Shown: positions 21,071 through 55,661 of the stretch, one piece after another
Layout of the letters: each line of letters opens with the position of its first letter
Position numbering within the stretch: the stretch's first letter is position 1
Assembly (NCBI GenBank): GCA_000002435.2
Contig: CM018793.1
Source of the DNA: Giardia intestinalis
Taxonomy: Eukaryota
Strand: one strand, 5' to 3'
Length of the DNA: 64,000 bases
Program-made: the position numbers and the translations under genes
The notes under the pieces: model-generated
Database searches by the model: none
The model's input: only the letters and a program-made list of their open reading frames with translations
What the model was told of the DNA's origin: nothing

Positions 21071-21177
21071 GGATTTTTAATTTTGTAGGCCACCGGCGAT
21101 AAAGTGCCACGGGGCTTCATTTACATGGAAGAAAACCGGGTTAACGGTCGTGCCCGTAATCCACCAGCGGCGTCAGA

Positions 21178-22075: not shown

Positions 22076-22251
22076 ATGTTGGATCTCACAAGGCAAAGAG
22101 TTTTTACTCTGTTTTTTGATCTGATCCTTCAATCGTCGTTCGCACTCCAGGGCATCCTTCGTATCATTCCATGGAGACATTCGGGTTTTCTTATCTGCCC
22201 AATCAATGTCCTTTGCCCGGGTCCACCAAAGGTCGTTCAAAAAACTTGTAG

Positions 22252-28110: not shown

Positions 28111-28159
28111 ATGTTTGCAACATACTGGCACATGACTGGCCCGGCCTTAAAATCACCGC

Positions 28160-33235: not shown

Positions 33236-33449
33236 CCCGCTGCCCGCAAGGTGTCGGTATTGGTAAGTCGACGGCGCGGATCTGCATACGAATGTAAACA
33301 TGATTTACTTCGAGGTTAGTTTGTCAACTGCTGTCCGAACAGGTTTTCCATGTGAGCCATCGCTCTGGGCAGACCTCCCGCTCACCTTCCGAGACCCGAG
33401 AGCCGGATGTCCTAGATCCCCGTGGGAGAAGAAGAAGGTTTGCCTATCC

Positions 33450-33790
33450 TCTTGGAAGCTGCTGTGCTTCTCGCAGCGCCTTCTAGGACCTCCCCTTCCT
33501 CTGGCTGGTTGTGGGCAGCCAGGACTCGTTCGCTTCTGTCAGCCAGACACCCCAAGGATCCCATCTCTTGTCGAGGGATTCACATAGGTCACATGGTGAG
33601 TCCATCCCGATGAGCGTGGCAAGTGATCGGCGCCATTGCCAGCTGCAGGCTTTCAGTCGCCTTCTCTATCGCCTTGGAGGAGGAAGCATGAGGTTCTTCT
33701 TTTGTCATCAGAATGGTATGACGTCCGAACCTCGATTCCCTGACTTCAGATGATGAACAAGCAGGGAAGTTCTTTGCATGGCACTTGCAT
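33450..33790 (+). repeat. Direct repeat copy A (~330 bp, ~75% identical to 50825..51190) with a near-identical 36-nt core
   Basis: Core cccatctcttgtcgagggattcacataggtcacatg differs at 2 positions from copy B. Short ORFs in both copies end in ...PSLVEGFT / ...PSLAEGFT and share QGSHLLSRDSHRS / QGSHLLPRDSHRS. Confidence 0.7.
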
Positions 33791-33799
33791 GAGGGATTT

Positions 33800-36700
33800 G
33801 CTCAGACAGCAGCTACGGCGTCTGGCTACATGTTTCTCTTACGAGCCTGGTAATTGACCAGAGTTGCTTTACAGTCGCGGAGACACTGCTGCGTCTCTCT
33901 GAGTCTTTTAGAGAGACGATCCAGTTTAGTGTAGAAGAGTGAGGGCGATCCAGCCCCGTGCCTACGTGCTGCTCTGCAGTCTGCTGCTCCTGCTTTCTGT
34001 CTTCGTTTCCCTGAAAGCAGTCACGATGGCTCTCTGGAGCAATCGCTTGCATCCATCCGCAACCCTAGGCGTTACGGCTTGGAAGTCCATGTCACCGCAT
34101 AAGCTCTATGGAAGGCATTTACTAGCCATGGCAGATGGAGGTCGCCGCTTCTGGAGGCCCTGGTGCATGCCAGGCCTAGAAGACGCTGACTCCACTGGCT
34201 GCAGGAGCCCCCACCTACATGTGACAGCTTGAAGTAGCACCACTTCGAGGACAGAGGATATCCACAGCTCGAGAGGACGCGGCGGCAGAGAACAGACTCA
34301 GGCATAGCCACAAACAGACCCATCGATCCGGATGGATGAGGGCGGACACCTAATTGGCAAGCCGTTGGCTAGTCTATGTAGAATCGCACCCTCCAACGCA
34401 GGCTCTGACACACAAAGTTTAATGCAGACTATATGTACACAGCAGACGGGCAGAAGCCTGCTTCGTAGTGTGTGGAGGCTTTGATGAGGCAATCGCGGGC
34501 TTAATGAAGGCCGGGACCGGTAGCTCTAACAGAGGGCTTCCCAGCTTTGGAATACTTGCGATCACCATAGAGTCAATACAGTGAGTTATCTGCAGTAACA
34601 AACTTGTGGAGATAAGGGCAGAGTCCTATCAAACTAACTAGATACTAATGGATCCTAGCGTGAACTCGCAGTATAAGAACTTGCAGAAGGCACCGCATTC
34701 TACTCATCTGAGTAAGACGGCCAACTAAGTGGACCCATAGTGCAAAGACCACGAGGCCAAGGGCTCCTCCATAGCTTCAGAAGCCAACATCACAAGAGTC
34801 ACACTGGCTGCGGAGTGCTTTCTGATCCACTGAGGCTTAGCGGCATGGCTTCGTTTCCTAGTACGGCCAGACAGGCTTGAGACACGAGATACTCTGTCTG
34901 CTACAAAGCACACCTTCTGGCAGCGACTCTTGTCTATCGGGTAACTCTCGCATAGAGGAGGCAGATGGCTCTGAAGCGTCACTGCTCGCCTGATAGCTCT
35001 GGATCATAGCAGAGGAAGTTGTTTATGAGAATGCACCCCTAGTGTGTAGATCCACATTTTCGTGCGACGTGAGAAGACGTTTCTGGGTTGATCTGTCATG
35101 CCTCCATCTGCTCTAGCAAAATGTAACGCAACGCATGCACTATTGATCTATGTCGCCATGGCAGCCATAGTTAACTAGCCAACGAGACAATCGCTAGAGG
35201 AACCCTCGCACACTTATGAGCAGAGGCGCAGCCTGAGAGCAGTCCTCTGGCCGCTAAGTGATGGAGGAGCAGACATAGCGCTGCTCCGTGCAATCACACT
35301 CTCTTACCTTAGTAGCTATATGGGCAGCCCCGGTCTTGTGAGGTCTGTGGATAAGCTGCTTCACCCCATAAAACACTCAGAATTACTACAGGTGACACCT
35401 GCAAAATCTTACTGTTGGAGGCCATGCTCCACTAGAGACATGGCTCTGGAAACACATTGACTGATGGGAGCTCCCCTCTAGCGTTCTTAGGGGCGATGTC
35501 TGTCCACAATAGCTCTACACCCACTGCCTGTCTATGACCCAACTGTATCTTATTAGACCCCTATCTCCACTGAGTGGCTGATTCGAGGGTGATTGCCGTT
35601 ACCAGAATGATATCTTATATTGACTGCTAAGAGCTGTCTTTGCATATATTACGCTGCTTAGTACTGCACTCAAACGAAGTTTGCCATCGTTTCGCAGCTA
35701 TTGTGGATTGGAAGAACAGTTAGCACTCTCAGTAGTTCATGTGGTAATCGGAAGTCAGGGAAGTCTAAGTTGAGTGGGAAAGCTTGAAGAGGAAGTAGCA
35801 GCTCTTGTACTCCTCTGCTGGGTGATGCAGAGAACTGGCTCGTTTCTTAGCGTCGATAAGTTCTTCAGAATGCACGTTTCTTTGTATAAGGCCTGCATGC
35901 TTCGGATTGCCCTCTGTTGCCAGCAGAGCAGCCACCGCCCTGTGTGTCTCCTTCAGGCATATACCCATCTACGACGACGCCTCATGTATCCTCTCTGGAG
36001 AGGTATAACCGTCCCAATCCAGACACCTTGCTCTCAGCGCACACCTCGTATCTATCAAAGGCCAGGTGTTCGTCAACCATATCCCGTGAGCATCAGCGCT
36101 GTGCCACTATGTTACTTCCTGTCCTTCTTGAGGGGCGTGCTCTGACCATCTCAGTGTCTCTATGATAGGAGAGCTGTGGATCCGGAGGCTGCTGTGGCTT
36201 TCTGGCCCTCTCTGCTGTCCAGTAGACTGCAAGAGCGCCCTTCGGGAGTCGGTCCCCCAACCCTCTGTTCTCTCGGGGAAGTGGTCCTTGGATAGTGCTA
36301 CTTGGATGGTTCCCGAAGCCTCACTGCACGGGTGCTGCTTCTAAGAACTCCTGGAGCCTCCCTACAGAGTCGCCCAATGGCGCAAGTCTTACCCATTGTC
36401 AGCGGGGGTCTTGGCTCTCAAGGACATCTCAGGGACAGTACGTTTGACCCACGCCAGTGCCACTTCCTGGCAGAGGCATGCGGAAGATCTACTCCCTCTT
36501 GTGGATCCATCATTGGTATCGAAAGCACTGCGTCTGTTACCTTCGTTGGAGGTGTCGACAGATGGTACCCCGTATCTGCCCCATTGAAGAGTTGGAGGTC
36601 TGCTAAGGACAGCGAAGAGGATCCCATCAGGGCTGTGATCATATACCCGTCATTATGGCAACCATAGTGTAGATAAGACAACTGTCTGAGTCCTGTGACT

Positions 36701-39700
36701 CCCGGGGTGAGACGCCAGGGGCGTAGCTAATTCAAGCTGATGAAGGCTACCCTTGTCATAGCAGGCTTAGAAAATAGGGAGCGAGTGACGTACCTGGTGT
36801 CCATCAACGCACACATGCAGCCTGGAAGCCGTGTTCAAAGCACCAAGGCCTGCAGGGGAATGGCATCCGAACAGGCCCAACAGTTATGACTGTTTCTGAG
36901 GACAAGTCAGCGTGACTAAACGAGAACATGAGAACTCACAGAGACCCTCACAGTTTTGATGTCTGGGAGAACGTGGGGGCTGACCACTCCAAGGTTGTCC
37001 ATCTCATGAGCTGGCTTTCGATAGCAAACATAACAAGGAAGTGACCCCTAATTATACACAATCTCATGCCAGCCCATCGCAGGATAGACCATCATTGCCT
37101 GACCTACCAATCCGTCCATTGCTGTGATAGATGTAACAGTACTTCATCATCGGCCACCTTGCGGCTACACAGTCAGGGTATTATCCGTGACATTGCTTGC
37201 TGATGCTCTGCATAGGGCCCTGTCCTCGTAGAGTGACAGATGAGCCTCTCTGTATATGTGGATCTAATGATATGGCTCCTCTGGGACTTTCCACCTCTGC
37301 TTCTGTCTAGTATCTCACATCAATATGAAGTGGCCAGTGGCTGTTATTGGATCTTGCAGCATAACTATTACACATGTATGTGCCCATCAAGACTACCATA
37401 TAGGGTCACACAAGCCGGGAGCTCTGTCAGGCAATTATCGGACTCGATATCAAGATGGCACGGGGACAACACTCCCAGTGGTCGCTGAAGCATGAAGCAT
37501 TATATAGATCGTATAGCATACCAGCGGCAGCACAACGGCAGAGGACATACTTAGATGTAGATAGCGCCTACAGCAAGCGGCATGCTGTCGTTGTCGGTAC
37601 AACGGGCATAGTGGCTACTGGATCCACGCTTTGGTAGCCTCGATTGGAGCAATTGCACAGCGAAGGAGCAGAGCGAGGGGGCATGGAAACCAACCGGTCG
37701 AGCAACGTGTACATGTACGAGCACAGTTATAAGTCTCGCCCACACTAGTGGGTGGTGCTCTGCCTCAATGTGGACTCAGCGGGTTAGCTCTTATATCTAT
37801 GGTAGGGAGCAGAACACCACGCTGGTCATGTGATGAGAGGTCTTCATGCGGTCTTCCAACTAGCCTAGGCAGCACTTGGAAGCGACCAACCCTCTCGTAC
37901 CACGTCTCCTCTCCAAATAGGACTGAAGGCGCCCAGGGCGCTCTTCTAGGGCCTTAGTATCATGGAGCCCGTGCCAGGCAGGAAGGTTCTATATTACATA
38001 GCATGAGAGCCTCTATGACGTGTAAATACTTGCGTGGTTGTAGTGACGCGTCCTCATCAGCAAGTGTCAGGGCACATCAGTGGACAACTGTATAATAAGT
38101 CAGGCACTCTGTGTGCGATCATGCATCACAGCTCTCGTAACGGGCTACGGGCGACCTGAGGACTAGTACTCTATGGCAGCGCAATGTGAGGCGGTGAGCC
38201 TAAGGCAATCGCCGGATCGATGGCTTCAACGCGGCATCCAACAAGGTGCAGCAGGGCATCGAGCCAGCTGAGCATTGAACCAGGCCCTGGATAGGAGCTA
38301 AGAGCTCCTGTGCATGGCTGGGCTGCTCTCTAGATGGGAAAGGATGCACGTCGAGCTGGTCAGGTGCGATGCTGTAAGGTATCCACAGCTGTATCGATGC
38401 ATCTGGTAAGTCCACACTGGACTCCGGGAAGCACGCTGCCGGACAAGCCGAGGAGGCTCGAGGGATGATGGCGCCGTCTTGTTATCGCTATGCAGTGCTC
38501 CGTGGACATGTATACAAACCAGCATCTCCTGGTAGCCGAGGAGGGGGCAGAGCTAGGAGACGGCGAGTGTCCCATTATGAACGACTCCAGGCGCTACCCG
38601 ATCACTCCTTGGAAGGGCATATGCCTCGGCTAGGTTGCATCACATCCAGAGTAGAAGAGGAAGCTGTACTGTCCTATTTGTTTCTCAGGACAATGTGCGA
38701 ATAGAAAGCGGCCCAGCGACTGACACTCTGCACCGTCCTCCTCATCCGCGGCCTGAGCAGCCAGATGCCAGGCTCGATATGTAGGACGGAAGCTGCGAAG
38801 AATAAACTCACCACGGGGCCGATTGTCTGACACCAAAAAATCCAAAGGGACGATAGCGCCCACTGCCTCTTAGGAGAGCGCATCATGCACGATACCAGCC
38901 GTGCCAGCCTTGGCTTCTTAGGGGAGTAACCTGGGGACGTCCTGTACTAGCTTCGGCTTGTGAGGCGTTAAGACCTGTGAATAGCACAAAAGGAGGCAAC
39001 TGGGTGTACAGGCAGTGCATTGTGTTCGTGGAAGTGTACCGCAACTTCTAGGTGTATACAGCGGCACTAAGCCGGGCATCTCAACTGGCCTGCATTGGCG
39101 ACCCGCTTGCCACCGTGTTTGCTGTGATGAGAGGCTGTGTCTGTCCAACAGATTGAACAGGTATTGCACTTGCTTCTCTGGTGATGCATGCATGGTCATA
39201 TGTAGCTCTGGTAGGTAGCGTGGATACTATGATAGCTAAGCTGTCTGCCATCAGTAGAGAGTAGCAGTTAATCGCGCCAGAGACTCTTCCAGGTAAGCCT
39301 TCGGTCTTCGTGCCTGCTTCTCCACCAACTATAGTAATAACTGTATATCCAGAACAATGCCATGAAACGCTCCACTGCCTTTCAGAGTGAGACATGGACC
39401 TGCGTATAGGGCTAGAAATAGAACCCTGTACATCAACTGTTGTGCGCCTGGCGTGATGTCAGGTCTAGACCGCGGCACGATCTCTGCGTGCTTATGTGCT
39501 TGCGTGCATGCTCACTGCTATGTTGGAAATTGCAGCAAGGAGGTTGGCCTCTGAGTGCACCCACTCTACAGTGACTAGTCCTTAGCTGCACGTCTCAACG
39601 GAGGAGGGTGCTACTTGGGTGTGCAAAAGACTATCTGTGCACGGCGGCTCCTGGAGAGATGGTTCGCACAGAAAAGGTAGAGGCGACCAACAGACCAGGG

Positions 39701-42600
39701 AGGTAAGATCATCGCTAGAGAGTCTAGTTATAGATCTGGATTGCAACGAGGACACTTGTAATGCCTTTCTGGCCTCCGAACATAGAAAGATTGCAAGGCC
39801 TATAAATAGATCGGAGGCTACTTTTTGATTTTGTGCATTTGTAGCGGCGTAATATTTATTGGGAGCCAGTCTCGTCTGAAGCTGGGGAAATTCACTTTCT
39901 CTCCATATACAGGCGAAGATCTATTGTAGAGGCATACTGTACAGGCCGGTACCAGTCGGCGTGGTTGCTGTCCACAAATGTCTCACTTGCGTCCTCCCAC
40001 AACAGATGAATCGCCAAAGTGTCTCTTGGATTGCGTGATGTCCTACAGTGCATCTCTGTTTCGGCCAAAGATTGGCGCACGCGTTGTGTAGTTTAGATTG
40101 CTCATCCCCATGAGGATGTAATCCGCTCTCATCCTCTGCTTGTCTATCTCGTACGACCACTGCTGATGACCTTTCCAGATCAGTGGGTGCCTTCATCGGT
40201 CCTGCAAAGGCACGCATCATGTAGGTGACTACTGCAGACCAGAGTTCTGTCTACCAAGGAAAAGGGTCAATCTGTTTACCGCGTAGGCATTCATTGTGTG
40301 CCCTATATAGTCCAGCAGGTCTTGTGCTCTTTAACATTTTCTCAGAGCCCTGTCTGGAGCCTGCATGCATATCGTTACTGACGAGCACTTTAGATTCACC
40401 TAGTCACCTAGGACGTCAAATCCCTTACGCTGCATAATGGGTATGCTCAGTGTGAGAGATACGTAGTCAGCATCAGCCTTCTCGGCTCATTGTCTGGGCA
40501 ATACTACTGCTGTTTCTCATCCAATCCGCTGGCGCGAGGACCCAGCTCATGGCTAGCAAACCGAGAAAGGCCATTCCGGGAGGTCTTCAAGCGCGCTAGT
40601 ACCTCGTTAGCGGGTAGCTAACAGTGACCGTGGCGCGTACTTCCACCAAGCCATGGCCTCCTTGAGCGGGGGTGTGAAATGGGGCCCTGTTATCCTGCGG
40701 CCCTGCTGATTCCCCGGACAGCAGGGATCGGAGCAGCCCAGCTAGCGCCTCTGGGTCTCCTTCTGTCCTCGTTGTCTGAGATGCGCTTGACTCTATAAAC
40801 TTGAAAAGGTACTGTACTGTGCTTGGGTCTGCGAGGCTCAACTAGGCAGGGCTACCCTCTTGGAGACTACGCTGAGGTACCACACATCCCGAGGAACCTG
40901 TATGGAGTACCACAGCCCAAGGGCACCTTTGTCTGTCGAATGCAAGTTGTAGTTATGGCTTCATAAGTGCAGCCTTTCTTAAAATAACTGATCAACTACA
41001 GAATTCGCCTACTCACCCAGAGCCACCTGATGGAGGATGATATCAGTCTCGTCAGTCGTCTACAACGTACACCAGTCGAGTCTTACAGATGAACAAGGGC
41101 TACCCAGTCCGCAGCACTAGACATTAGCAGATATCCTTCACGACAAGGGGGATAAGCGACTGGTAGACCAAAATAGTCGTCTGCCCATTGAAGATCTTCC
41201 AGTCACTGACCTAGGCCAGCTTCCTACAAGATTCTTGGCGAGTTGTATCAGAGACGCATGCTTATGGAACTCCCAACTCAAGGTGTATGCTGCTGGATCC
41301 CACCTTTCATACCAGTCTATGTATAGCGGTGCTCCGGCCTTTAGTGAAACTACCCTGGAGACCACATAAAATATAATGCCCCAGTCGGGTATTATCAGAC
41401 TCCTACAGCTATGCAATGAGGTCTGCTTTTCGCATTACGCATCAGAGAAGTATGTTGGGCTGTAGTGGTGCAATTCCTCGTATGGTATGGTTCGTGAGTC
41501 CAGAGATAAGATGCTTGTATCAATCGATCTGTTTACCTAGGGCCAACCATAAGTTGGACTAACGGTGACAATCAGACGCTGCTCGACTTCCTGACAGCAG
41601 ATAGAGATCCGACTACCCTAGTACCTTACCTGAGACCACAGGGACGCTGATTACGGGTCTGATTAATAGCTGGCGGAGCGACACGACAGGCCTAAGTTTT
41701 TTCTGCCGAAGTAGCCCACCACAAGAAACTCTTTGTCGTTCATACCAACAGATTCAGGCACTGCAAGCAATCGTGGTTCTACTACCGCTACAATGGACAG
41801 CACCAGGATGATCCAAAAGGGGTAATGGGAGTCCTGGTTTCTTAGCTTAGGAGACAACGCGGTTTGGGCAGTGCTTCCTCCTTGTCCAAATGTAGAAGTG
41901 TTGGCCTGCGTTTCCTGAGCTCCAATTGAGTCTTTGTCGTGCGGTGAGGTATCTTAAAATATCCATTACAAAAAGCGAAGAATAGCGCCGTCCACGCTCA
42001 ACAAACCAAAGCGTCTCACGGGCTAATCTACACCGATTCACATCTTCCATGGACCTTAGCGACCACCGTAACCTTCTGCTAGAATCTCACGGGAGCTCGT
42101 CTTTGAGTCCAGCTCTCCTACAACAGTCAGAAGCCGCAAACATAATCTGATGAAGGAGAATGCTGCAAGGACTGAGAAGAGAGTGCCGGTGAATGGGGGT
42201 TCGCAGGGACCCGATCCGCGCAGGGAAGGCGCAGGGGCCAACACCTCGGGGACACAAGGGCGTTAGGAGAGGAGCCAGCAGCAAATCTGTGGCACAGCGG
42301 GGACACTCAGGGCGTCCTTTCATTGTCTGAAGGGCAGGGGAGAAGCAGGTGTGTGAGGCGGTCCAGCAGATTATTTTTGAGTTTCTGCCTCCCTGCGTGC
42401 TGCACGAGGATGAATTTCCTTGGAGGCCGCTTGCCCAGGCCCAAAGGGTCCCTAGGGATGGCTTATACAATAGACACATTTACTACCCACTAATTTGCAT
42501 CTCTCAAACAAAGGTATCATAGGAGATGGACTCTTGAGATTATCTGATATAGTATGATCAGGTAGAGTGCTTTAGCTTTGGATATCTTATTCTTGTCCAT
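33800..42600. other. ~8.8 kb region with no ORF >130 codons on either strand and no recognisable protein motif
   Basis: The six-frame track shows only short ORFs at random-sequence density. GC is ~50%. No tandem repeats were seen. An AT-rich promoter for the VSP sits at its right edge. Confidence 0.6.
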
Positions 42601-42623
42601 ATAATAAGCTAAGAAGGGCTTCA

Positions 42624-44534
42624 ATGTTATTGGTAGCTTTCTACTTCGTGCTGAGCGCTCTTACGGCAGCTTGTCAATCGGATGCCCAAATTGCTAAATG
42701 TACGCAGTGTGTAAAAATAAGTACAAGTGATACTGAGATCTGTACAGAATGCAAAGCTGAAGGAGACGTTCCTATCAACGGAGTATGCACACCAAAGGGG
42801 GATGCTACTGTCACAACTGCTGGATGTAAGACTGATGCTGGAGCTGAAATAACAACAGAAAAGACATGTGGGCAATGCGACGGGGCTTACTTCCTCCATA
42901 AGAACGGATGCTATGCAATTGGCGGGGACGTTGGACGCCTTATTTGCGCCGATGCCGCAGCTGCTGGTCGTGTGTCATCAAAAACTCCTGGCGTTTGTGA
43001 GGGTTGCGTAGTTGGCTATTTTAAAAACCCAAGTGCAGCTAACAATAAGGACTCTTGTATTGCATGCAATGATGCAACTGGAGTTGTGGATGGTGGAAAT
43101 ACGTATAAAGGAATTCTGAACTGTGCTACGTGTCAGCCGCCAGCCAGTGCTGGTGCTGCTCGCCAAGACAAGGTTGCCGTATGTGAGTCATGTCTTGAGG
43201 GGTTCTTTGTTGACAGCAATGGGGCAGCATGCACAGCATGCCAGGACAATAACTGTGCTAAATGCGATGCAGGAGCAGGAAAATGCACGAAGTGCAAGGC
43301 AACCGCTAACAAGCCATATCTAAAAAAGGGCGAAACCGAGGACTCTAATACATGTGTTGATAAAAGTGGATGTAATGATAACTCCCACTTCACTGATGAT
43401 GCTGACGATCCTACTAATGGAAAAATGTGTAAGAAATGCTCAGAAGGGATAGCAGACTGCAAAACGTGTGCTTTGAAGGATAATCCTGAAGGTACAATTC
43501 TCATCACGTGCTCTGCTTGTATAGCAGGTACTAATCAACCCAACGCCGACGGAACGAAGTGTGTACTATGTGATATACAGGATTGTATAAAGTGTAATGA
43601 AGAGAATATGTGTGAAGAGTGTACTGGAGGTAAAAGCCTAAGCCCCTTAAAGAACATGTGTATGGAGGGCTGTCCTGCAGGAACTCGTGATGTCAGCGGG
43701 ATATGTACTAATTGCCATAATTCTTGTGCAGAATGTGATGGTGATAGTGAAGCCTCCTGTACAGCTTGTTATCCTGGGCTTGTATTGAGCAAAAGCAATA
43801 CTGGAGCCACCGGCACATGCATCCCAGAGTGCACGGGAAGGTACGCAGAGAACTGCGAGGCTGGCCAGTGCACGGCCGTCGTTGGGGGCTCGAAGTACTG
43901 CAGCAGGTGCAAGGCAGGGTTCGCCCCGGTGGACGGCGTCTGTGTGTCGACAACGACAAGGGCAGTAACTGGATGCATGCCAAATGATAACAATGATGGA
44001 ACATGCAAAGCGTGTACAACCACATACTTCTTGCAATCTGGCGGATGCTATCAGTCGGCTGCATACCCAGGCAGCAACCTATGTAGCAATGCTCAGAATG
44101 GAAAATGTACGAATTGTGCTAATGGACAACAACCAGAAGCTAGCACTGGATCTTGTCCAGCATGTGCATCTGGTTGTAAAACATGTGAGGTAGCAAACAA
44201 GGAGGCATGCAAAACGTGCCTTCCGGGATACTATCTTGCCGGAGCAAAATGTGTGAAGTGCGACACCAATGATCCCAATGATGGTAGCCATATTGTTGGT
44301 GTCCCAAATTGCGTAAGCTGTGCCCCTCCAACTGGTGGCAATGGCGGTCCTGTCACCTGCTACGTCAAGACAGATGTCACTAACGATGGTGGTAACGATA
44401 ACAACGGCGGGAACACGAACAAGAGCGGCCTTAGCACAGGCGCCATAGCGGGGATCTCCGTCGCTGTCATCGTTGTTGTCGGCGGCCTCGTCGGCTTCCT
44501 CTGCTGGTGGTTCATCTGCAGGGGCAAGGCGTAG
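42624..44534 (+). CDS. Variant-specific surface protein (VSP)
   Basis: Signal peptide MLLVAFYFVLSALTAAC; >10% Cys, mostly as CXXC; GGCY motif (LQSGGCYQS); C-terminal TM GISVAVIVVVGGLVGFLCWWFI plus invariant CRGKA tail; AGTAAAC 13 nt after the stop. Confidence 0.95.
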   Translation: MLLVAFYFVLSALTAACQSDAQIAKCTQCVKISTSDTEICTECKAEGDVPINGVCTPKGDATVTTAGCKTDAGAEITTEKTCGQCDGAYFLHKNGCYAIGGDVGRLICADAAAAGRVSSKTPGVCEGCVVGYFKNPSAANNKDSCIACNDATGVVDGGNTYKGILNCATCQPPASAGAARQDKVAVCESCLEGFFVDSNGAACTACQDNNCAKCDAGAGKCTKCKATANKPYLKKGETEDSNTCVDKSGCNDNSHFTDDADDPTNGKMCKKCSEGIADCKTCALKDNPEGTILITCSACIAGTNQPNADGTKCVLCDIQDCIKCNEENMCEECTGGKSLSPLKNMCMEGCPAGTRDVSGICTNCHNSCAECDGDSEASCTACYPGLVLSKSNTGATGTCIPECTGRYAENCEAGQCTAVVGGSKYCSRCKAGFAPVDGVCVSTTTRAVTGCMPNDNNDGTCKACTTTYFLQSGGCYQSAAYPGSNLCSNAQNGKCTNCANGQQPEASTGSCPACASGCKTCEVANKEACKTCLPGYYLAGAKCVKCDTNDPNDGSHIVGVPNCVSCAPPTGGNGGPVTCYVKTDVTNDGGNDNNGGNTNKSGLSTGAIAGISVAVIVVVGGLVGFLCWWFICRGKA

Positions 44535-44546
44535 ATGTACTTAGGT

Positions 44547-44553
44547 AGTAAAC
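44547..44553 (+). terminator. Poly(A) signal AGTAAAC downstream of the VSP
   Basis: Exact AGTRAAY match. Confidence 0.55.
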
Positions 44554-44829
44554 GCGTTGCTGTATATGGATTATGTAGATTATGCTACTAGGCCCCGGCT
44601 GCTGGTGCGTCCAGACGTCCCACGGGTAAGCCTCACCCATGTCCTGGCCGTCTGGAGACGAGGGCTGGTTGTGGATAACATGCTAGGGATTCCTCTCTAT
44701 TAGCGCATCCAGAGCTTGGTGCGCCCCTCTGCCACTTCGCGGGCATGTACTCGATTTGAGTGTGCGCGTCCAGGGCCCTGGCCTTTTCGCAGACTCTCTG
44801 CTCTACCCGTGGCGCCTCTCCTTGGTCTG

Positions 44830-45100
44830 CCGTCCTGGTGGGTGAAGCTCGGGTCGCTGTCTTTTTTAGATGCCCCGTCTGTCGGGGGCTGCCACCAGGC
44901 TCTCTCACTGGCTGGGCCCCTCGGTGTCCGTCCGGCTGTGTCCCGGGCAACGCTCCCACAGTCCAGTCACCTAGGTCTCACAGTGGGCCGGCTGGTGGGT
45001 GAGGCGGGGTTGGTGGGGCGGTGAGGCCGGAGGGGACCGGGGGCGGTGTCTCTATGTGCCCCTGGGTCCGGTGGACCATTGAGGTGGTGGGTGATCCCCA
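44830..45100. repeat. Left arm of a long degenerate inverted repeat (pairs with 46620..46905)
   Basis: The reverse complement of the right arm aligns at ~80-85% (e.g. ggccggctggtgggtgaggcggggttggtggggcggtgaggccggagggg vs ...gaggcagggttggtggggcggtgaggccggagggg). Both arms give short ORFs ending GRLVGEAGLVGR, on opposite strands. Confidence 0.75.
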
Positions 45101-46619
45101 CTCTGTTTGCCAAGGTGGTTGTGTCTGATCTCCAGCCTTCGTTGCACTCCCGAGACAGAGGCACCGACGATCGTGTCGTGTCCCTTGACTGAGTGCCTCC
45201 CTTGGCCCCTGCATGTCTCAAGTAGTACTGCTGCTCTGTCTGGCTGGTGCGTGAGGGGTGAGGCAGACCATCGCAGCCCATCTTGATGCTCTGTGCGGGT
45301 CTGCTGAGCCTCCTGGCATGCCCTGTCCAGTGCCTCGACGGTAGTTCACCTCGGGCCAGCAGGGGTATGGACAACCCTGTGGATGGGATGGGGTTCTGTC
45401 ATGCCTCTAGTGTGATGGCCCAGAAGACTGGCACGGTGGGGCACTGGTGGCTGCACTGTCCCCGTGGCCAGCTGTGCTGCTCCTGGTAGATCCTTGTTGT
45501 GGAGCGCTGTGTGTTGTTCATAGGCAGGGGTGAGTCCTCCTTGGTCTCAGGATGCTCTACCATCAGAGAGGAGTACGCTGAGGGTCACCCAACATCACCT
45601 GCTGTGCCCTCGGGAGCTCCCGATGTGATCTATCAGGACCTTGACACCTCCTCGTGGCTCTGATGACCCCTCGGGGAGAGCCGGGGCACCCTATACTGAG
45701 GGGTGTGCACCCTCCTGCACGAGCCGGGTCACCCACTGCACTGCCCCCAAGGAGGTCTGCTATGAGAGGCAGTGGGATGATTGACAGCCCCTCAGAGTGC
45801 AGTGGAGGGTGCTCGTGGTCGTCTCTGTGACCGGGCATCACTCTGATGGTCGGCTCTGTGCCTTTGTGGTGCTCAGAGGTCACCTGTCCTCCATAGCCTG
45901 CCGGACAGCCGGGCCTCTTGTGGCATCCAAAGGCCTCCTCGCTCCTCTGGCTGCTGCCCCCTCGGGTCATCGGTGGAAGTAGTCGAGGCCAGCGGAGTCT
46001 TCGGTGGGTCGTGCCTGCCTGGGTGTCATGGGGGGCTGGCAGCTGTCAGGGCTCTGCCACTGCTCGCCTGCCTGGAGTGTGCCTCCCTTGGGCCTGCTGT
46101 GCTGTAGTGTTTGAGTCCTCTGGCTTCCTATCAGGCCCTTGGTTGTGAGGGTGACTTCACCTGGCCCTCTGATGCCCCTGTGGATGAGCACAGTAATGTG
46201 TCTGGCCGGGGATCTCTGGTGCCCGTGTCTGTCACTGCCTCTCGGGTGCTCGGGTGGTTGCCTGGGGCTCTCGTACGGGGCACAGTCAGCGTGTCCCGAG
46301 CAGACTCCAGTCCTCTCTGGGTCATGCACAGTCTGTCCGTGTGTGGATGGTCCTCCTGCACTCAGGTCCATCTGTGTGCACTGTCACTCAGTCTCGAGAG
46401 CAGACCAGTGCAGTCACCAGGGCTGCTGTCAGAGGGAGTCGTCTGCCACTACATCGCTCGAGCAGACCCTACAGCTCAGGCTGGCTGCTGTGCACCCTCA
46501 TGGTAGGGCTGCCTGACTCCCTTGGTCATCCTCTCTGTCCCGGTGTGCACGGCTCCTGAGGCGTTGTCTGGGTGGAGGCACTCACAGACCACGAGCCCAC
46601 AGAGGGGTGAGTCACAGAT

Positions 46620-46905
46620 GGATAGCCCCCAGTCACCACAGCTATGATCACCCCAGTCCACCGGATCCAGGGCACATACGAACACCGCCCCACCCGGTCC
46701 CCACCAGGAGCCCCTCCGGCCTCACCGCCCCACCAACCCTGCCTCACCCACCAGCCGGCCCGCCATGAGATCCAGGTGACCGCGACTGTAGAGCGCTGAC
46801 CCAGAACCACAGCCAGACGGACATCGAGGGGCCCAGCCAGTGGAGCTGGAGAGGTGGCGAGAGAAGATCTGCTTACTCACAGGGGAAGCAGCGACCGAGA
46901 ACAAA
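46620..46905. repeat. Right arm of the inverted repeat. The ~1.5 kb between the arms is GC-rich and stop-poor in all six frames.
   Basis: See the left-arm entry. The spacer 45100..46620 carries overlapping ORFs in every frame but no protein motif. Confidence 0.75.
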
Positions 46906-47571
46906 TAACGATGCCCCTTATAGCGAGCCAGAGACCTAATAGCTGCTGTCGTCGAGACAAGTGAAAGCATTGTTAAAAAGATAGTAGCAACCCATATCTA
47001 TCATCCACCATGAAGAAAGACCATGAAGCGAGGCACTACTCATAGACTACATGTGCTGGTGAGTAAGCTGAATCCAAGGCTGAGCGACGCCCACACATAG
47101 TCTGAGCACACACCCACAGAGCGACCGGGGAAGGTGCCAGGTTTTAGATACACTAATAGAGGGGACCCTCTAGTATGTTGTCTACAACCAGCCCTCGTCT
47201 CCGGATTGGCCAGGAATTGAGCGAGAATTTACTCGTGAGACTTCTGGACCGCGTGAGGCGAGGCTCCAGCAGCACAGTACCTATTTTGCTGCACAGGAGC
47301 TCACACTGGCACAAGATGGCTCCGTGCACTCAGATTGATGGACAGAAGGGGTCAATTCGTAAGATCTGTCTCACTAAGGGCGCTTTGGTTGCAATCCCAC
47401 GACTTCAGAGGCTTCTGTGCTGATTGGGATTGGGTAATGATGCGCGAGGAAAAGCGTTCGACCAGGAGGTAGCAAGGCTGAGGCTCACCGAATCCATGAT
47501 TGTTATCTACCCACAGATTCTGCGAAAATTGGACCCAGTACAGTAATTGTTAGTTTGGCGTAATAGAAAGC

Positions 47572-50190
47572 GTGAATCTAATTGCGCATGACATGGTCAG
47601 TGAAAGTCCCACTCGTGCTGCAGAGAGCGCTGGCAGTGGCCTCGATAGCATCCCCATGTTCAGTCCCGAAGGGCTGTATCAGCGCGAAGGCGAGCTGCTA
47701 GGTAAAGGGGGCTTCGGTGCCGTTCGCGCCATCGATGGGTGTCCAGGCCTTTCTGTGAAGGAGAGGATGATCAAGCGTAGTGAGAAGAAGCTCACAGAGT
47801 GCGAACTGAAAACTGTTACGAGACTCTCCCAGCCTGGCGTCATCAAGTATCACCAGGTGATCAGGAGCAACGACCCATCTTTGTCATCATGGACCGCCAC
47901 CACGGGGATCTCCAGAAATTTATCACTGCCTACAGGGCAGCTCGTAAACCCAGTCCCAAGGGGCTGATGTTCCCTCTCCTAGAGCAGATGGCTGACGCCC
48001 TCGCCTACCTCCACAACCCTCGCAAGGTGGCCGAAGACGGGAGCTTATCTTACAGCCTCGTCTACGGGGACCTCGGGCCCGCCAACTCTGATGAATAGGG
48101 ACGGCTAGCGCATCGTGCTCGCAGACTTTGGGCTCTGCAAGGACTCTCTGCATAGTGGAGGCACCTTTGCAGGAACGTCGGCATACATAGCCCCCGAGAC
48201 CTTCATACGAGACGAGCACCGCTTCGGATATCTGAGCCTCCGGAGTCGTCATGTATGAGCTTGCCGAGCTTCTCACACTTTGGGAGCCAGAGGATGCGAA
48301 AGCAGTCTTTGACAATGAGTGGAGGCCTGATTTGGGCGCCATCACAGATGAATTTGTAAGAACTGTCATCGAGAAGATATTATCCTGGACCCGGCAGAGC
48401 AGCTCACGACCAGAAAGATCATTGGCTTTTTCCAAACACTCAATAGCCCTGCAATTAAAGCGGAGGATCAACATAAGGAATCCGAACATCTTGCAGAACG
48501 CTCCACTCCGACAAATGTTACGGTTTCTTTAACTTCTTCTACGTCCATGAACATGTCTAAGCCCCCGCTTGTATATCCTTTCAGTGGTACAAGTGTTGAA
48601 GCTGCTGAAGAACACCTTACTGAGGAAGACAGTGGTATCGACCCTATTCATTGAAGAATAGAGGCTCCTTTTGTTACAGACGGGGGCGCATACAGCAAGA
48701 AGTATATGGCTCTTGCGCGGAGCATCCCAGCTCTGACTCCCTTCATTATGCGCGTGTCGTTATTCTTGACCAGTCATATAGCAGGTCAACCCTCTTCAAC
48801 GACCTCTTTGGAACATGCCTCAAGGCGTTGGACGAAGATGACGACTGACAAAAGACGACCAAGGGGCTTACAGCGGGATTCATCCCAGGTGCAGGATCCT
48901 ATCCGACCATACTACTACTCTATTGTAAGGGGTCCGAGAGCAAAGAGCGTGCCACAGAAAATGATCAGAATATTGAACGCTGTATAGGCGCTTTCGCATC
49001 TGCCATTGCCGACATTCTTATTGTTCATATTTTGCAGACAGATGTTAGTCGTGTAGAAGGATTCTGCGCCAATCTCCTCAAATCGATCTTCTCAGTCTAC
49101 TTCCAGCCCCGCAACGACGTCAAAATATATATCACAAACTTAGGCTGTTCATCGATATCCATCGGTGTAATGGAAAGGGAGAAGATCACATGAAGGAAGC
49201 ACTTAACAATGATATCAAAGGAATATATGAGAACTCAGTCCCTTCCAAATTGCGTAATAGCTTCCGTCGTTACATCGACTTCAGCTTCTGGTTCATTCGG
49301 GACACGTCCTGTGAGGACAAGAATGGTAACCAGGATGAATCGGACCTTTACAAACAACAAATAGAAGGTATCCGCAGAGACATACAGACACTTGTTGCCG
49401 AAGTCATCAATCAACTTGCTTCGAGTGAACGCTTGTTCCTCACCCTTGCTGATTCTGCTGAATTCTATAGGAAAATTTGGGACACAGTTTGCAACAATGA
49501 GAATTTTGATGCTCCTTTCATACAGATGGTCTTTCTAACAAAAATGCTAGATGACAATGGTGTTACTTCACTTATGAAAGTGGCTATGAAAGGTGACATA
49601 AACTCTGTGAGACTGCTGATACCAAGCCAGAAGGAACTGAAGGATAGGAAAAATCACAATGCTCTGTACTATTCTCTTAAAAATGGACATCTAGAAGTTG
49701 CTGAGATGCTTATATCTTATGAGGACCCAACAGATGATGATGGTATGACAGCACTTATGCGGGCTGTTATTAGGGGGGCGCAAAGCTAGTAGAGCTGCTT
49801 ATACCAGCTCATAATGGAATGAAGGACAAGGCTGGAAACACGGTGTTCATGCATGATCTTAAGAACAAGCACACAAGCATAGCTCTGCTTCTCCACAAAC
49901 ACGGGGCCTCATCCTAGACCCCAGTCATGTGCGCTTCCTTCGCCGGCGATACTGAAAGAGTTAAGAAGAACCTTTCTGATAAAGACAAGAAGAATGATGA
50001 TGGTGAGACTGCTCTCATGTTGGCAGCAGAAAATAACAGAAGACATACTCTTTTTTACCAAAGTCAACTTGCTAGTTGTTGTCTGAGTAAATATCCCTGC
50101 AAACCACCATTGCTCTGGGCAGATGGGCTTCTCACTTACTCTTGGGCAAAGTCCAAAATCCGAAATTCGGATGCCATCCAATCCTAAAGA
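47572..50190 (+). pseudogene. NEK-type protein kinase with C-terminal ankyrin repeats (Giardia NEK / protein 21.1 architecture), disrupted by at least 4 frameshifts and an in-frame TGA at a conserved Trp codon
   Basis: Kinase subdomains are spread over three frames: LGKGGFGAV (frame of 47572); IFVIMD...GDLQKF then a degenerate catalytic loop LVYGDLGPAN (47799); IVLADFGLCK...GTSAYIAPE then DI*ASGVVMYELA near 48230 (expected DIWSLGVVMYEL, TGG to TGA); MYELAELLTLWEP (48251). Ankyrin repeats sit in three further frames (49190..49789, ~49794..49915, 49927..50187). Confidence 0.6.
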
Positions 50191-50824
50191 AAAGAAGAAC
50201 TTTATGTTCATCCCTCCGGGAGCTGCTACTGTTCTTCGCGGTGCTTTTTGAGGATTCCTCCCTTCCCTTGGCCAACTACTGTCTGACGCTTGAGTGGGCA
50301 CCTGCTGTCTCGGGCCTTGCGTCGGTCACTGCGATCTGGCCCCCACAGAATCCAGGGCTCTGGTCTTCCGTGACGAAGATCGCGCCCCACGACCCCGGGT
50401 GTCCACCCCGTTCCTCGGGGTGCCTCTTCGTCTCCTCGTGGAGGGCACTATCTGTTCCATTATCAAGGGTGCGCTCCCCATGCACCTCTATCTTGGAGTC
50501 ATAGTACGCGTTCGTGGATGCCAGTGGACAGCTCCCATGCGTTGTGTCGGGGGAGAAGTATGGCCCTCCTATTCATGGATTGCGGTGCGCTCTTGCAGGT
50601 GCTCCGTCACCCAGCACGAGACCGTGTCGACGCTCACCTTGTGCAGCGTGTTTGGCTCAGTGACGTGTGGGCTGGTCCATCTGCACTGCACAGCACACCT
50701 GGGGGAATGATTCGGTCTGTCGAGGCGTCGGTCCAGGGCCACCTCTCTGAAGGGTGTCATCCGAAGCATCAGAAGCGATCAGGACCAGTTCATCGAGGTC
50801 GTCTCTCTCTACAACCGGCGCCCG

Positions 50825-51190
50825 TCTACTCGAGGGTGTCAGGCACTGCCAGCTGCTGCAGCAGACCCCAGGCAGGTGGCCCAGACCACCACTCTTCGGT
50901 ACGGTCAGGATCAATCCGCCTCTGTCAGCCAAGCACTCCAGGGCTCCCATCTCTTGCCGAGGGATTCACATAGGTCACGTGTGGGTCCATCTCGACTAGC
51001 GGGCGATGATCCTGGCCAGCGTTGGCCTAGTGCGGCGAGTGATCGGCGCATCCATCACCAGTTTCAGGCCCTCTATTGCCTTGGAGAAAGCACAAGGCTC
51101 TTCTACCAGGAGTGGACGACATCTGATTTTCAAATTTCAGACTCTAGATTTGGATCCCCGTTGATGAACGAGCAAGAGACACACCTACCT
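50825..51190 (+). repeat. Direct repeat copy B (pairs with 33450..33790)
   Basis: Same orientation as copy A; identical core cccatctcttgccgagggattcacataggtcacgtg; the similarity is patchy, with indels. Confidence 0.7.
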
Positions 51191-51278
51191 AGAATGGCGC
51201 TGCATCTTCTTGATTCAAGAAAACATTTACTAGCACATACTGCGAGATTATCAATGCAGATTATGCTATGATAAATAA

Positions 51279-53150: not shown

Positions 53151-53579
53151 TTTATTGCAATTTTCAGCAAGTAGCAACGTGATAATTTCCCTGTAATCTA
53201 TCGTTGGTTACTACGCGTGGTCTCCAGGGAGCCACCACTAAAGTGGTTGTACTTGTTGTTTACCCAAAACGTAGCCGAGTCTTACATTCTTCCAGTCAAT
53301 AAGTTTGTCAAAATAAAAGCACAACCCTGAAACGTACCGGCCTACTTACAAGCGCGTGCATAATGTGGTCGACGGAGAGCATATGAAGCATAGCTGATGT
53401 CTCCATGCGCGGATCTCTGCTTCGGCGTTAACTAATAACAGCCCCGTACTAAATGAAGGGTGGCCTACTTAACTCTACCAAGGCCAAGATAGCGACATAT
53501 CTCAGATTGGATTTCAGGTCGGAGAGCCGCCGGCGCCGTAGAGCCTGCGGCTAGCTTCTGTAGTGCTGCCTCTCCGAAC

Positions 53580-55176: not shown

Positions 55177-55661
55177 CAGAGGAGCGGTGTGGGCACAAGA
55201 AGCCCCGTCATGCGCGGGTCACGACGTCGGCTCCGGGTCGGCCAGGGCCAGACTTCGCGCGGCCTGCTGGGAGAGGGCTGGCAATGAAAGTTCAGTTTGC
55301 AAATGCTAGCACCTGTGAAATATAACAGATCACGAGACTTGTCGATATATTCCTAGAAAATAGAATGTGTAAATTTCATTACATTATATGGATCTGCACT
55401 GGTTTGTCTTGATGCAGATAAGTTACGTATATTGAGCCTATGTAAGCTCTTGCCCTGAAGCAACCGATTTCTCGTGGACATAATTCTACCCCAAAAAGTG
55501 ATGATATCATTCAAAATACCCTAATATTTAAAGCTAGCTTAGGATGGTATTGGTACTTACAAATACAATCAATTTTTTGAAAAACGATAACCCAATATTA
55601 TCTAGTGATGCATCCAATCAACAACTCTTGCAGTTTCATATACGCACGAGCTTATATTCAG

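What the first reader, a model, noticed from the sequence alone, without database searches (positions are those of the whole stretch)
33300..51270. A ~17.4-kb gene-poor accessory island bounded by ~330-bp direct repeats, wedged between two convergent HCMP genes
In a genome where coding density is normally above 75% and spacers are tens of bp, this interval holds only one intact gene (a VSP). The rest is a frameshifted NEK-kinase/ankyrin pseudogene, a 2.1-kb palindromic GC-rich element and ~8.7 kb without any ORF. The interval starts ~100 bp after the stop of the 1691-aa HCMP (+) and ends ~100 bp from the 3' end of the 632-aa HCMP (-). It is bracketed by same-orientation repeats (33450..33790 and 50825..51190, ~75% identity). 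Homologous recombination between them would excise the whole island. This looks like a discrete insertion or lineage-specific rearrangement unit in a VSP/HCMP/NEK/21.1 variable region rather than ordinary intergenic DNA.
Basis: partly seen in the sequence, partly recalled or inferred. Interest (0 to 1): 0.65.

Follow-up and report, generated by a model that had tools for sequence, protein, structure and literature searches.

The report
Gene-poor VSP variable region in Giardia
This is a real but ordinary stretch of the Giardia WB reference genome: a gene-poor, fast-rearranging patch around a surface-antigen (VSP) gene, made of duplicated fragments and dead genes, and not a discrete island that its weak flanking repeats could cut out.

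Summary
The observation mostly holds. Coding density is 10.6% in 33236-51278 against 90-96% in the flanks. The interval holds one intact VSP, a frameshifted kinase/ankyrin pseudogene, a GC-rich inverted-repeat element, 9.4 kb with no coding signal, and two same-orientation repeats. The repeats are smaller and weaker than described: about 250 bp, 81% identity in a 116-bp core, 21 bp longest exact match.

The window is Giardia intestinalis WB. Homology to other lineages stops at 33298 and resumes only at about 55632, so the variable block is about 22 kb and includes the right-hand HCMP. That HCMP lies in a partial copy (51199-55044) of a locus on another chromosome. VSP636 and this HCMP each have an identical second copy, in reversed order, further along the same chromosome. 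The left HCMP has a near-identical second copy. The "palindrome" has the size and layout of a spacer between tail-to-tail VSP pairs, but its partner gene is missing.

The direct repeats do not coincide with any breakpoint, and no mobility gene was found. This kind of region is already described for Giardia. Low interest.

The parts
28160..33235 (+). HCMP EGF-like, 1691 aa (left flank gene); has a near-identical second copy on the same chromosome
   Evidence: Translation is identical to P0006 = KAE8304611.1 / XP_037902125.1 (Giardia WB). P0023 = KAE8304628.1 differs by 2 aa.
33236..33298 (.). Conserved 63-bp 3' flank of HCMP1691; left synteny breakpoint at 33298/33299
   Evidence: L004 (95.4% identical lineage) is collinear with window 19791-33298, then diverges. 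The 63 bp are 97% identical.
33299..42623 (.). 9.3-kb stretch with no coding signal, origin unknown
   Evidence: Codon log-likelihood is negative in all six frames. No Pfam family in any stop-free segment of at least 55 aa. Longest stop-free run is 130 aa, below shuffle expectation; GC 51.8%. No tandem repeats. No Rfam hit.
33520..33765 (+). Left copy of the direct repeat
   Evidence: Core 33520-33635 vs 50906-51018 is 81% identical, score 62 against shuffles 12.9 +/- 1.5. It extends with indels to about 33765.
42624..44534 (+). Intact VSP, 636 aa; an identical second copy exists on the same chromosome
   Evidence: Pfam VSP E 1.5e-79. C-terminal CRGKA. Equals KAE8304612.1 and KAE8304640.1.
44539..44555 (+). 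Extended VSP polyadenylation motif ACTTAGGTAGTAAACGC
   Evidence: Exact match, and the only one in the window at up to 3 mismatches. The motif is defined in PMC3091692.
44583..45076 (+). Left arm of the GC-rich inverted repeat; starts 49 nt after the VSP stop
   Evidence: blastn 44609-44709 / 47249-47147 (79%) and 44906-45076 / 46842-46656 (80%). The repeat finder I1 and I2. Outer ends.
45077..46655 (.). Unique 1.58-kb GC-rich core of the inverted-repeat element
   Evidence: 61% GC. No Pfam family and no coding signal.
46656..47275 (-). Right arm of the inverted repeat; no partner VSP beyond it
   Evidence: No VSP remnant in 47276-50900 (best tblastn E 0.38). No second poly(A) motif.
47593..50052 (+). 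Pseudogene of a NEK-like kinase / RHD3-Sey1-type GTPase / ankyrin protein, with at least 4 frameshifts or stops and an internal deletion
   Evidence: Collinear tblastn to P0219 (2044 aa): aa 1-661, then aa ~1240-1686. Corrected translation: Pkinase E 2.7e-19, RHD3_GTPase E 8.6e-17. Ank_2 E 1.6e-22. Frames read.
50906..51175 (+). Right copy of the direct repeat
   Evidence: 99% conserved in the A2-type contig L001.
51199..51278 (-). 80-bp conserved 3' flank of HCMP group 6; homology to the ancestral locus stops at 51199
   Evidence: L002 is 87% and L003 is 74% identical down to 51199, and nothing matches beyond that point. L005 blastn ends at 51199.
51279..53150 (-). HCMP group 6, 623 aa; a paralogous copy with an identical second copy on the same chromosome
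   Evidence: Equals P0028 = KAE8304613.1 and KAE8304639.1. 87% aa identity to KAE8303481.1, which lies next to B56 on the 2.76-Mb contig.
53474..55044 (-). Truncated, frameshifted ankyrin-repeat (ARP-1 / protein 21.1) pseudogene
   Evidence: Matches only aa 811-1336 of the 1337-aa assemblage-B-type protein, in two frames. The full-length WB parent is KAE8303482.1, 1399 aa.
55267..55632 (.). Right edge of the variable block
   Evidence: The A2-type contig L001 diverges from the window at 55267. Assemblage-B-type L007 is collinear with 64000-55632 only.
55662..57698 (-). tRNA pseudouridine synthase TruD; first conserved single-copy gene on the right
   Evidence: Pfam TruD E 4.4e-44. Equals KAE8304614.1.

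Best explanation
The interval is the larger part of a roughly 22-kb (33299 to about 55300-55630) VSP-associated variable region of Giardia intestinalis WB. It lies on the 4.02-Mb contig, between the conserved genes GL50803_00114498/HCMP1691 and TruD. It is not a mobile or excisable unit. It is a patchwork left by repeated segmental duplication, inversion or deletion, and decay.

Its components, left to right:
1. 9.3 kb of DNA with no coding signal.
2. One functional VSP with its normal 3' signal.
3. The spacer of a former tail-to-tail gene pair: inverted arms of about 0.5 kb around a 1.6-kb core, with arms decayed to about 80% identity and the partner gene lost.
4. A dead NEK-kinase/GTPase/ankyrin gene.
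5. A partial copy (the 3' third of an ankyrin gene, plus HCMP group 6, plus 80 bp of its 3' flank) of a locus whose intact, syntenic version sits next to B56 on another chromosome.

The part holding VSP636 and HCMP623 exists twice on this chromosome, with the gene order reversed. I infer from this a large inverted segmental duplication kept identical by recent origin or by gene conversion. The two ~250-bp direct repeats are relics of an older local duplication (about 20% diverged). They play no boundary or recombination role.

Shown: the anatomy, the pseudogene identities, the breakpoints against four other lineages, and the second copies at the protein level.
Inferred: the DNA-level extent and orientation of the second copy, the loss of the tail-to-tail partner, and the inertness of the repeats.
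For: Identity of the window: its proteins equal WB proteins KAE8304610-615 in consecutive order.

Second copies: VSP636 = KAE8304612 and 640. HCMP623 = KAE8304613 and 639, so the order is reversed. HCMP1691 has a copy, KAE8304628, differing by 2 aa.

Ancestral locus: in two other lineages the order is Ank759-Ank1337-HCMP-small gene-B56 (L002, L003, L005). In WB the same neighbours are KAE8303479/3481/3482 on the 2.76-Mb contig. The window matches that locus only over 51199-54871, and its ankyrin gene is truncated and frameshifted. P15 also has a truncated ankyrin (437 aa) next to an 87%-identical HCMP group 6.

Breakpoints: 33298, 55267 and 55632.

Assembly behaviour: short-read contigs of two other lineages end 270-530 bp after TruD.

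Inverted-repeat element: arms begin 49 nt after the VSP stop and run to 542 nt; the element is 2.69 kb. Published tail-to-tail pairs have spacers of 2393-3222 bp and flank identity for 318-559 nt (PMC2996952), or spacers of 2526-2813 bp (PMC7000408).

General precedent: gene-poor regions around VSPs and duplications of up to 20 kb are reported for this assembly. Synteny breaks at VSP/HCMP/NEK/21.1/GTP-binding genes are reported in PMC3091692.

No mobility domains were found.
Against: The DNA of the second copy (around KAE8304628-640) could not be read, so the extent, orientation and identity of the duplication rest on protein accessions alone.

The origin of the 9.3-kb non-coding stretch is unexplained.

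The relative that diverges at 33298 (L004) provides only 413 bp past the break.

No lineage with an 'empty' site (HCMP1691 close to TruD) was recovered, so accretion in place cannot be told apart from a single large duplicative insertion.
Confidence: 0.7

Rival explanations
1. Single-event model. The whole block 33299-55267 (about 22 kb) is one duplicated unit that was inserted, in inverted orientation relative to its sister copy, between HCMP1691 and TruD. Its mosaic content was already assembled at the donor site.
For: The two breakpoints found against close relatives (33298 in L004; 55267 in L001) delimit about 22 kb. This is close to the 'up to 20 kbp' largest duplications reported for this assembly. 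VSP636 and HCMP623 are both identical in the second copy and adjacent there. L001 (A2-type) shares 48356-55267 and then has a different flank, as expected for the sister copy.
Against: The extent of the second copy was not seen at the DNA level. The DH (A2) contig shows the TruD-ankyrin-HCMP623 junction as in WB, so any insertion predates the A1/A2 split. P15 already has the truncated ankyrin + HCMP pair, which suggests at least that piece is old. The position of HCMP1691' (KAE8304628) does not fit a simple two-arm picture.
Confidence: 0.2
2. First reader's model. A discrete 17.4-kb accessory island (33300-51270) was inserted between two HCMP genes. It is bounded by ~330-bp direct repeats, and recombination between them excises it.
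For: Two same-orientation repeats do exist near both ends. The right one ends about 25 bp from the 51199 breakpoint. The region is lineage-variable.
Against: The left repeat begins 220 bp inside the 33298 breakpoint. L004 has no repeat copy in the 413 bp after its break. The 51199 breakpoint is the edge of a different duplicated block, which continues to about 55044. The repeats are 81% identical with a 21-bp longest exact match. There are only two copies in all DNA held and none in JGI metagenomes. No mobility genes were found.
Confidence: 0.05
3. The ORF-free DNA (33299-42623 and/or the GC-rich inverted repeat) is a functional non-coding element. Candidates are a chromatin or VSP-silencing element, a source of small RNAs, or a centromere-like region. 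On this view it is not decayed junk.
For: 9.3 kb with no coding signal is exceptional in a genome that is 81% coding. It lies directly upstream of a VSP, a gene class under epigenetic one-at-a-time control (PMC2996952).
Against: No tandem repeats. No Rfam family. No unusual base composition (51.8% GC). The left end is not conserved in a 95%-identical lineage. No expression or chromatin data could be consulted.
Confidence: 0.04
4. Assembly artefact. The island results from mis-joining repeated VSP/HCMP contigs in the long-read assembly.
For: Both flanking HCMPs and the VSP are duplicated. Short-read assemblies break at both edges.
Against: An independent A2-type metagenome contig (L001) reproduces 48356-55267 at 97.7% identity, including the right repeat. 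The DH contig carries TruD, the ankyrin fragment and HCMP623. The 2007 WB annotation has the same order: VSP, then GL50803_10587, then HCMP623, then GL50803_135870.
Confidence: 0.02

Closest known systems
Gene-poor, non-syntenic VSP/HCMP/NEK/ankyrin regions ('chromosomal islands') of Giardia genomes (Jerlstrom-Hultqvist et al. 2010, PMC3091692; Xu et al. 2020, PMC7000408)
   Same: It contains a VSP, HCMPs, a NEK-type pseudogene and ankyrin pseudogenes. Coding density is far below the genome's 81%. Synteny with other assemblages breaks on both sides. Parts are duplicated elsewhere in the genome. A GTP-binding domain gene is involved, as reported for synteny breaks.
   Different: The 9.3-kb stretch has average GC (52%), not the raised GC reported for such islands. 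This particular locus and its anatomy were not found described in the papers searched.
Tail-to-tail inverted VSP gene pairs with 2.4-3.2-kb spacers (Adam et al. 2010, PMC2996952; Xu et al. 2020, Table 2)
   Same: The inverted arms start 49 nt after the VSP stop and run to about 540 nt beyond it. The element is 2.69 kb, inside the published range. The core is non-coding.
   Different: There is no partner VSP on the other side. The arms are about 80% identical, not nearly identical. A similar arm follows an HCMP, not a VSP, in another lineage (L004).
Segmental duplications of the WB assembly (6.9% of the genome, up to 20 kb; Xu et al. 2020)
   Same: VSP636, HCMP623 and HCMP1691 each have an identical or near-identical second copy on the same contig. 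One of each pair carries a new-style accession, as for the duplicated genes newly resolved in that assembly.
   Different: The extent could not be measured here. In addition, the HCMP623-ankyrin piece is an older dispersed copy (87% aa) of a locus on another chromosome.
Genomic islands or transposons bounded by direct repeats (target-site duplications, LTRs)
   Same: Two same-orientation repeats lie near the ends of a low-density interval.
   Different: The repeats are diverged, are not at the breakpoints, are not found elsewhere, and no mobility gene is present.

Membership tests
Giardia VSP-associated variable (non-syntenic, gene-poor) region | Contains members of the VSP, HCMP, NEK and ankyrin-repeat families | tested here: met
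   VSP; HCMPs; NEK/GTPase/ankyrin pseudogene; ARP-1 pseudogene.
Giardia VSP-associated variable (non-syntenic, gene-poor) region | Coding density well below the genome norm of about 81% | tested here: met
   10.6% (33236-51278) and 16.9% (33236-55661), against 90-96% in the flanks.
Giardia VSP-associated variable (non-syntenic, gene-poor) region | Break of synteny with other assemblages or lineages | tested here: met
   Homology ends at 33298 (L004), at 51199 and 54871 (L005), and at 55632 (L007).
Giardia VSP-associated variable (non-syntenic, gene-poor) region | Raised G+C and atypical codon or nucleotide signature | tested here: inconclusive
   The inverted-repeat element is 61% GC and HCMP1691 is about 65%. 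However, 33236-42623 is 51.8%, against 52.5% for the whole window.
Giardia VSP-associated variable (non-syntenic, gene-poor) region | Higher allelic sequence variation in mapped reads | not testable with these tools
   No read data were available.
Excisable island or mobile element bounded by direct repeats | Repeats sit exactly at the ends of a presence/absence polymorphism | tested here: not met
   The left break is at 33298 but the repeat starts at 33520. L004 has no repeat after its break. The 51199 break is the edge of another duplicated block.
Excisable island or mobile element bounded by direct repeats | Repeats similar enough to recombine, or created by the insertion | tested here: not met
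   81% identity over 116 bp; longest exact match 21 bp; several indels.
Excisable island or mobile element bounded by direct repeats | Mobility gene or remnant (reverse transcriptase, endonuclease, integrase, transposase) | tested here: not met
   No Pfam family in any stop-free segment of at least 55 aa in 33236-42623 and 44535-47560, nor in the ORFs of 44.6-51.3 kb.
Excisable island or mobile element bounded by direct repeats | Empty site with a single repeat in a relative | tested here: inconclusive
   No contig spanning HCMP1691 to TruD or HCMP623 was recovered from any other lineage. Contigs end at the edges.
Tail-to-tail inverted VSP pair | Inverted 3' flanks that start just after the stop codon and extend 318-559 nt | tested here: met
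   The left arm spans 44583-45076, that is 49 to 542 nt after the stop at 44534.
Tail-to-tail inverted VSP pair | Spacer of about 2.4-3.2 kb of non-coding DNA | tested here: met
   The element spans 44583-47275 = 2693 bp with no coding signal.
Tail-to-tail inverted VSP pair | A second (usually identical) VSP on the opposite strand | tested here: not met
   No VSP similarity in 47276-50900 (best E 0.38). No second poly(A) motif.
Tail-to-tail inverted VSP pair | Flanks nearly identical up to an abrupt divergence point | tested here: not met
   The arms are 79-80% identical, with indels.
Segmental duplication of the WB genome | A second, near-identical copy elsewhere in the genome | tested here: met
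   Shown at the protein level only: KAE8304612 = 640; 613 = 639; 611 vs 628 differ by 2 aa.
Segmental duplication of the WB genome | DNA-level extent and boundaries of the two copies | not testable with these tools
   The rest of the 4.02-Mb contig could not be fetched.
Giardia non-LTR retrotransposons (GilM / GilT / GilD) | Reverse transcriptase or endonuclease coding remnant | tested here: not met
   No RVT or endonuclease Pfam hit.

The most novel reading that the evidence does not exclude
The block holding VSP636 and HCMP623 (possibly all of 33299-55267) is one arm of a very large inverted repeat on this chromosome. The second arm lies about 25 genes away and is kept identical by gene conversion. 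Such arms could flip the intervening roughly 25-gene segment, or couple the expression state of two identical VSP genes. The 9.3-kb non-coding stretch upstream of the VSP could be a functional chromatin or small-RNA element of that system.
Probability: 0.07. Interest if true: 0.55.

Novelty: new member of a known kind. Interest (0 to 1): 0.2.

Why it matters
The result mainly prevents a misreading. The island is not a mobile or excisable element, and its flanking repeats have no boundary role. It is a worked example of how Giardia's variable regions are built: partial copies of loci from other chromosomes, orphaned spacers of inverted VSP pairs, dead NEK/ankyrin genes, and recent large duplications that carry intact surface-antigen genes. 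That is useful when annotating this part of the WB reference and when judging synteny breaks. It adds no new principle beyond what the Giardia genome papers already describe.

Tried and rejected
1. Exact-protein look-ups of the window's own genes and of P0006 found no contig. The rest of the WB chromosome, including the second copy, therefore could not be read.

2. I tested whether the small gene or B56 found downstream of the HCMP orthologue in other lineages survives in decayed form under the right repeat. It does not: tblastn E > 0.29 and no nucleotide match beyond 51199.

3. I tested whether the NEK/GTPase/ankyrin pseudogene derives from the 2044-aa gene near the ancestral HCMP locus (L005). 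Rejected: P0219 does not match that L005 gene. The equal length is a coincidence.

4. I looked for a retrotransposon or other domain remnant in the ORF-free DNA. There were 0 Pfam families and no motif hits apart from the kinase/ankyrin region.

5. I looked for VSP/HCMP-like remnants in the island using the window's own proteins. None were found outside VSP636.

6. I looked for codon-position periodicity in the mismatches between the direct repeats. The counts were 9/5/7, so there is no coding signature.

7. Scans of JGI metagenome contigs for the repeat core and for VSP636 relatives found nothing.

8. The literature search for these locus tags found nothing. The search for a Giardia centromere map returned six papers; I judged from titles and abstract openings that none maps Giardia centromeres, and I did not open them. 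No tandem repeats and no Rfam family were found.

9. I planned a 10.6-kaa concatenated six-frame query to the protein database. I dropped it as likely to be swamped by chance candidates.

Full report
**What the window is.** The 636-aa ORF at 42624-44534 is a Giardia VSP (Pfam VSP E 1.5e-79). The window's proteins are identical to Giardia intestinalis WB (ATCC 50803) proteins with consecutive accessions on a 4,018,654-bp contig:
- KAE8304610: GL50803_00114498, window 22252-27201
- KAE8304611: HCMP EGF-like, 1691 aa
- KAE8304612: VSP636
- KAE8304613: HCMP group 6, 623 aa from the ATG at 53150
- KAE8304614: TruD
- KAE8304615: CMGC RCK kinase

. The finding therefore concerns the reference genome of Xu et al. 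2020 (PMC7000408).

**Checking the observation.**

Gene-poor interval. Coding density is 0.106 in 33236-51278, against 0.905 and 0.961 in the flanks. The three spacers here are 9388, 6744 and 2511 bp, against 10-958 bp elsewhere.

The left 9.39 kb (33236-42623). It has no stop-free run longer than 130 aa, which is below what shuffles give (162 +/- 29). The codon-usage log-likelihood is negative in all six frames, whereas the VSP and control genes score +20 to +40. It has no Pfam family in any stop-free segment of at least 55 aa, no tandem repeats and no Rfam family.

The pseudogene. It is real, and it is a single unit at 47593-50052(+).
- Read across three frames, it shows GKGGFGAV, a degenerate HRDLKPxN (YGDLGPAN), DFG and APE.
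- The frameshift-corrected translation hits Pkinase at E 2.7e-19.
- It continues into an RHD3/Sey1-type GTPase fragment (E 8.6e-17, degenerate P-loop, one in-frame stop) and then ankyrin repeats.
- It is collinear with a 2044-aa protein, P0219, over aa 1-661 and then about aa 1240-1686. It therefore also carries a large internal deletion.

The 'palindrome'. It is an inverted repeat. The arms are 44583-45076 and 47275-46656, about 79-80% identical, around a 1.58-kb unique core. Total length is 2693 bp at 61% GC.

The direct repeats. They exist but are smaller than stated. The strict local alignment is 33520-33635 vs 50906-51018 at 81% identity, with score 62 against 12.9 +/- 1.5 for shuffles. 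With indels they extend to about 33765 / 51175. The longest exact match is 21 bp, and the mismatches show no codon periodicity. There are only two copies in the window and in all fetched loci.

**Comparison with other lineages.** The contig index did not return the WB genome itself. It did return relatives.

Left side. L004 is a metagenome contig 95.4% identical to WB. It is collinear with window 19791-33298, which ends 63 bp past the HCMP1691 stop, and then diverges. Its remaining 413 bp contain no copy of the direct repeat. Instead they carry a sequence related to the arms of the inverted repeat: 68% to the right arm and 60% to the left arm, starting 205 nt after the stop.

Right side. L002 and L005 are assemblage-B-type, because their proteins cluster with GS and BAH15c1 accessions. 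L003 belongs to a third lineage. All three share the order Ank759, Ank1337, HCMP, a 200-aa gene, B56, FYV7-like, Got1-like. The window matches this locus only from 54871 to 51199, which is 80 bp past the HCMP stop. None of the neighbouring genes is anywhere in the 64-kb window. The window's ankyrin sequence (55044-53474) covers only aa 811-1336 of the 1337-aa protein and is frameshifted.

The intact locus in WB. It lies on a different, 2.76-Mb contig: KAE8303479 (B56), KAE8303481 (HCMP group 6, 87% aa identity to the window's copy) and KAE8303482 (ARP-1, 1399 aa). The right-hand 'flanking' HCMP is therefore itself part of a partial, dispersed duplicate. P15 (assemblage E) has the same pairing of a truncated ankyrin (437 aa) with an 87%-identical HCMP group 6. 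The pairwise identities suggest this duplicate is about as old as the A/E split.

Where core synteny resumes. It resumes at 55632, 30 bp past the TruD stop (L007). The short-read contigs of two other lineages both end 270-530 bp after TruD. The variable block is therefore about 33299-55630, not 33300-51270.

**Duplication within WB.**
- VSP636 is also KAE8304640, and HCMP623 is also KAE8304639. Both are identical proteins, listed in the reverse order.
- HCMP1691 has a second copy, KAE8304628, differing by 2 aa.
- Old-annotation identifiers show the same local gene order, and they show two copies of the ankyrin ORF GL50803_135870.
- L001 is a metagenome contig whose ORFs are identical to DH (A2) proteins. 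It matches window 48356-55267 at 97.7% identity, including the right repeat at 99%. It then has an unrelated flank, as expected for the sister copy.
- The DH contig carries the TruD, ankyrin fragment and HCMP623 junction as in WB.

From this I infer a large inverted segmental duplication of at least the VSP636-HCMP623 segment. Xu et al. report duplications of up to about 20 kb and gene-poor regions around VSPs.

**The inverted-repeat element.** Adam et al. 2010 describe tail-to-tail VSP pairs. Their ORFs are 2393-3222 bp apart, and their 3' flanks are identical for 318-559 nt beyond the stop. In Xu et al. Table 2, all convergent pairs are 2526-2813 bp apart. Here the arms start 49 nt after the VSP636 stop, just past the exact VSP poly(A) motif (44539-44555; motif from PMC3091692). 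They run to 542 nt, and the element is 2.69 kb. No partner VSP or second poly(A) motif lies beyond the right arm, and the arms have decayed to about 80% identity. The best reading is the orphaned spacer of a former tail-to-tail pair. The arm-like DNA after HCMP1691 in L004 suggests this element family also follows HCMP genes.

**Verdict on the interpretation.** The specific model is not supported, for four reasons:
- The repeats do not coincide with any breakpoint.
- The relative that diverges at 33298 (L004) carries no repeat copy in the 413 bp after its break.
- The repeats are too diverged to recombine efficiently. This point is an inference from 81% identity and a 21-bp longest match.
- There is no mobility gene.

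The most likely history is stepwise duplication, inversion or deletion, and decay, of the kind already described for Giardia variable regions. A single 22-kb duplicative insertion (33299-55267) cannot be excluded and is listed as a rival. What remains unexplained is the origin of the 9.3 kb of non-coding DNA and of the ~250-bp repeats.

**Scores.** The region is real, and its anatomy is now clearer. It belongs to a known kind in a well-studied reference genome. Interest is 0.2.

Noticed in passing
window 47593-50052 (+); proteins P0219, P0220, P0221: The pseudogene belongs to a family whose intact members combine a NEK-like kinase, an RHD3/Sey1-type GTPase (GPQSSGKSTLLN P-loop), a long coiled-coil region and ankyrin repeats in one protein (P0219, 2044 aa). 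P0220 and P0221 have the GTPase without the kinase. Only 5 representatives were found at E <= 1e-10 among 1.84 billion, so the family looks restricted.
   Followed up: partly
window 53474-55044 (-): A truncated, frameshifted ankyrin-repeat (ARP-1 / protein 21.1) pseudogene lies just outside the finding's right edge. Its ORF 53752-54234 was annotated in 2007 as GL50803_135870, in two identical copies.
   Followed up: yes
L004 13484-13896; window 44583-44844 and 47275-47002: In a 95%-identical lineage, arm-like DNA of the inverted-repeat element sits 205 nt after the HCMP1691 stop. The shared core is GGAGACGAGGGCTGGT. This suggests a dispersed 3'-flank element family shared by VSP and HCMP genes.
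   Followed up: partly
L007 12038-12566; L008 12032-12298: In two other lineages the short-read contigs end 270-530 bp after the TruD stop. The L007 tail is 430 bp of AT-rich DNA followed by the GC-rich 3' end of an unidentified gene on the opposite strand. This suggests the position after TruD is also assembly-breaking (repeated or variable) in two other lineages.
   Followed up: partly
window 27659-28096 (-); L004 7870-8307 (-): A 145-aa ATG ORF lies in the 958-bp spacer between GL50803_00114498 and HCMP1691. It is also called, at the same length, in the 95%-identical lineage. It may be a small real gene. No Pfam family was recorded for it.
   Followed up: no
window 29420-33301 (-): A 1293-aa open frame runs antisense through the GC-rich (about 65%) HCMP1691 gene and 66 bp beyond its stop. 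It is most likely a by-product of composition and not a gene.
   Followed up: no
proteins P0028, P0029, P0030, P0032: HCMP group 6 paralogues within one genome (87% in WB, 84% in P15) are more alike than cross-genome paralogue pairs (78-80%). This hints at gene conversion between the dispersed copies.
   Followed up: partly
window 51018-51050: The right direct-repeat copy carries a ~31-bp insertion that looks like a local tandem duplication of the adjacent GCGG(C)GA(G)TGATC motif.
   Followed up: no
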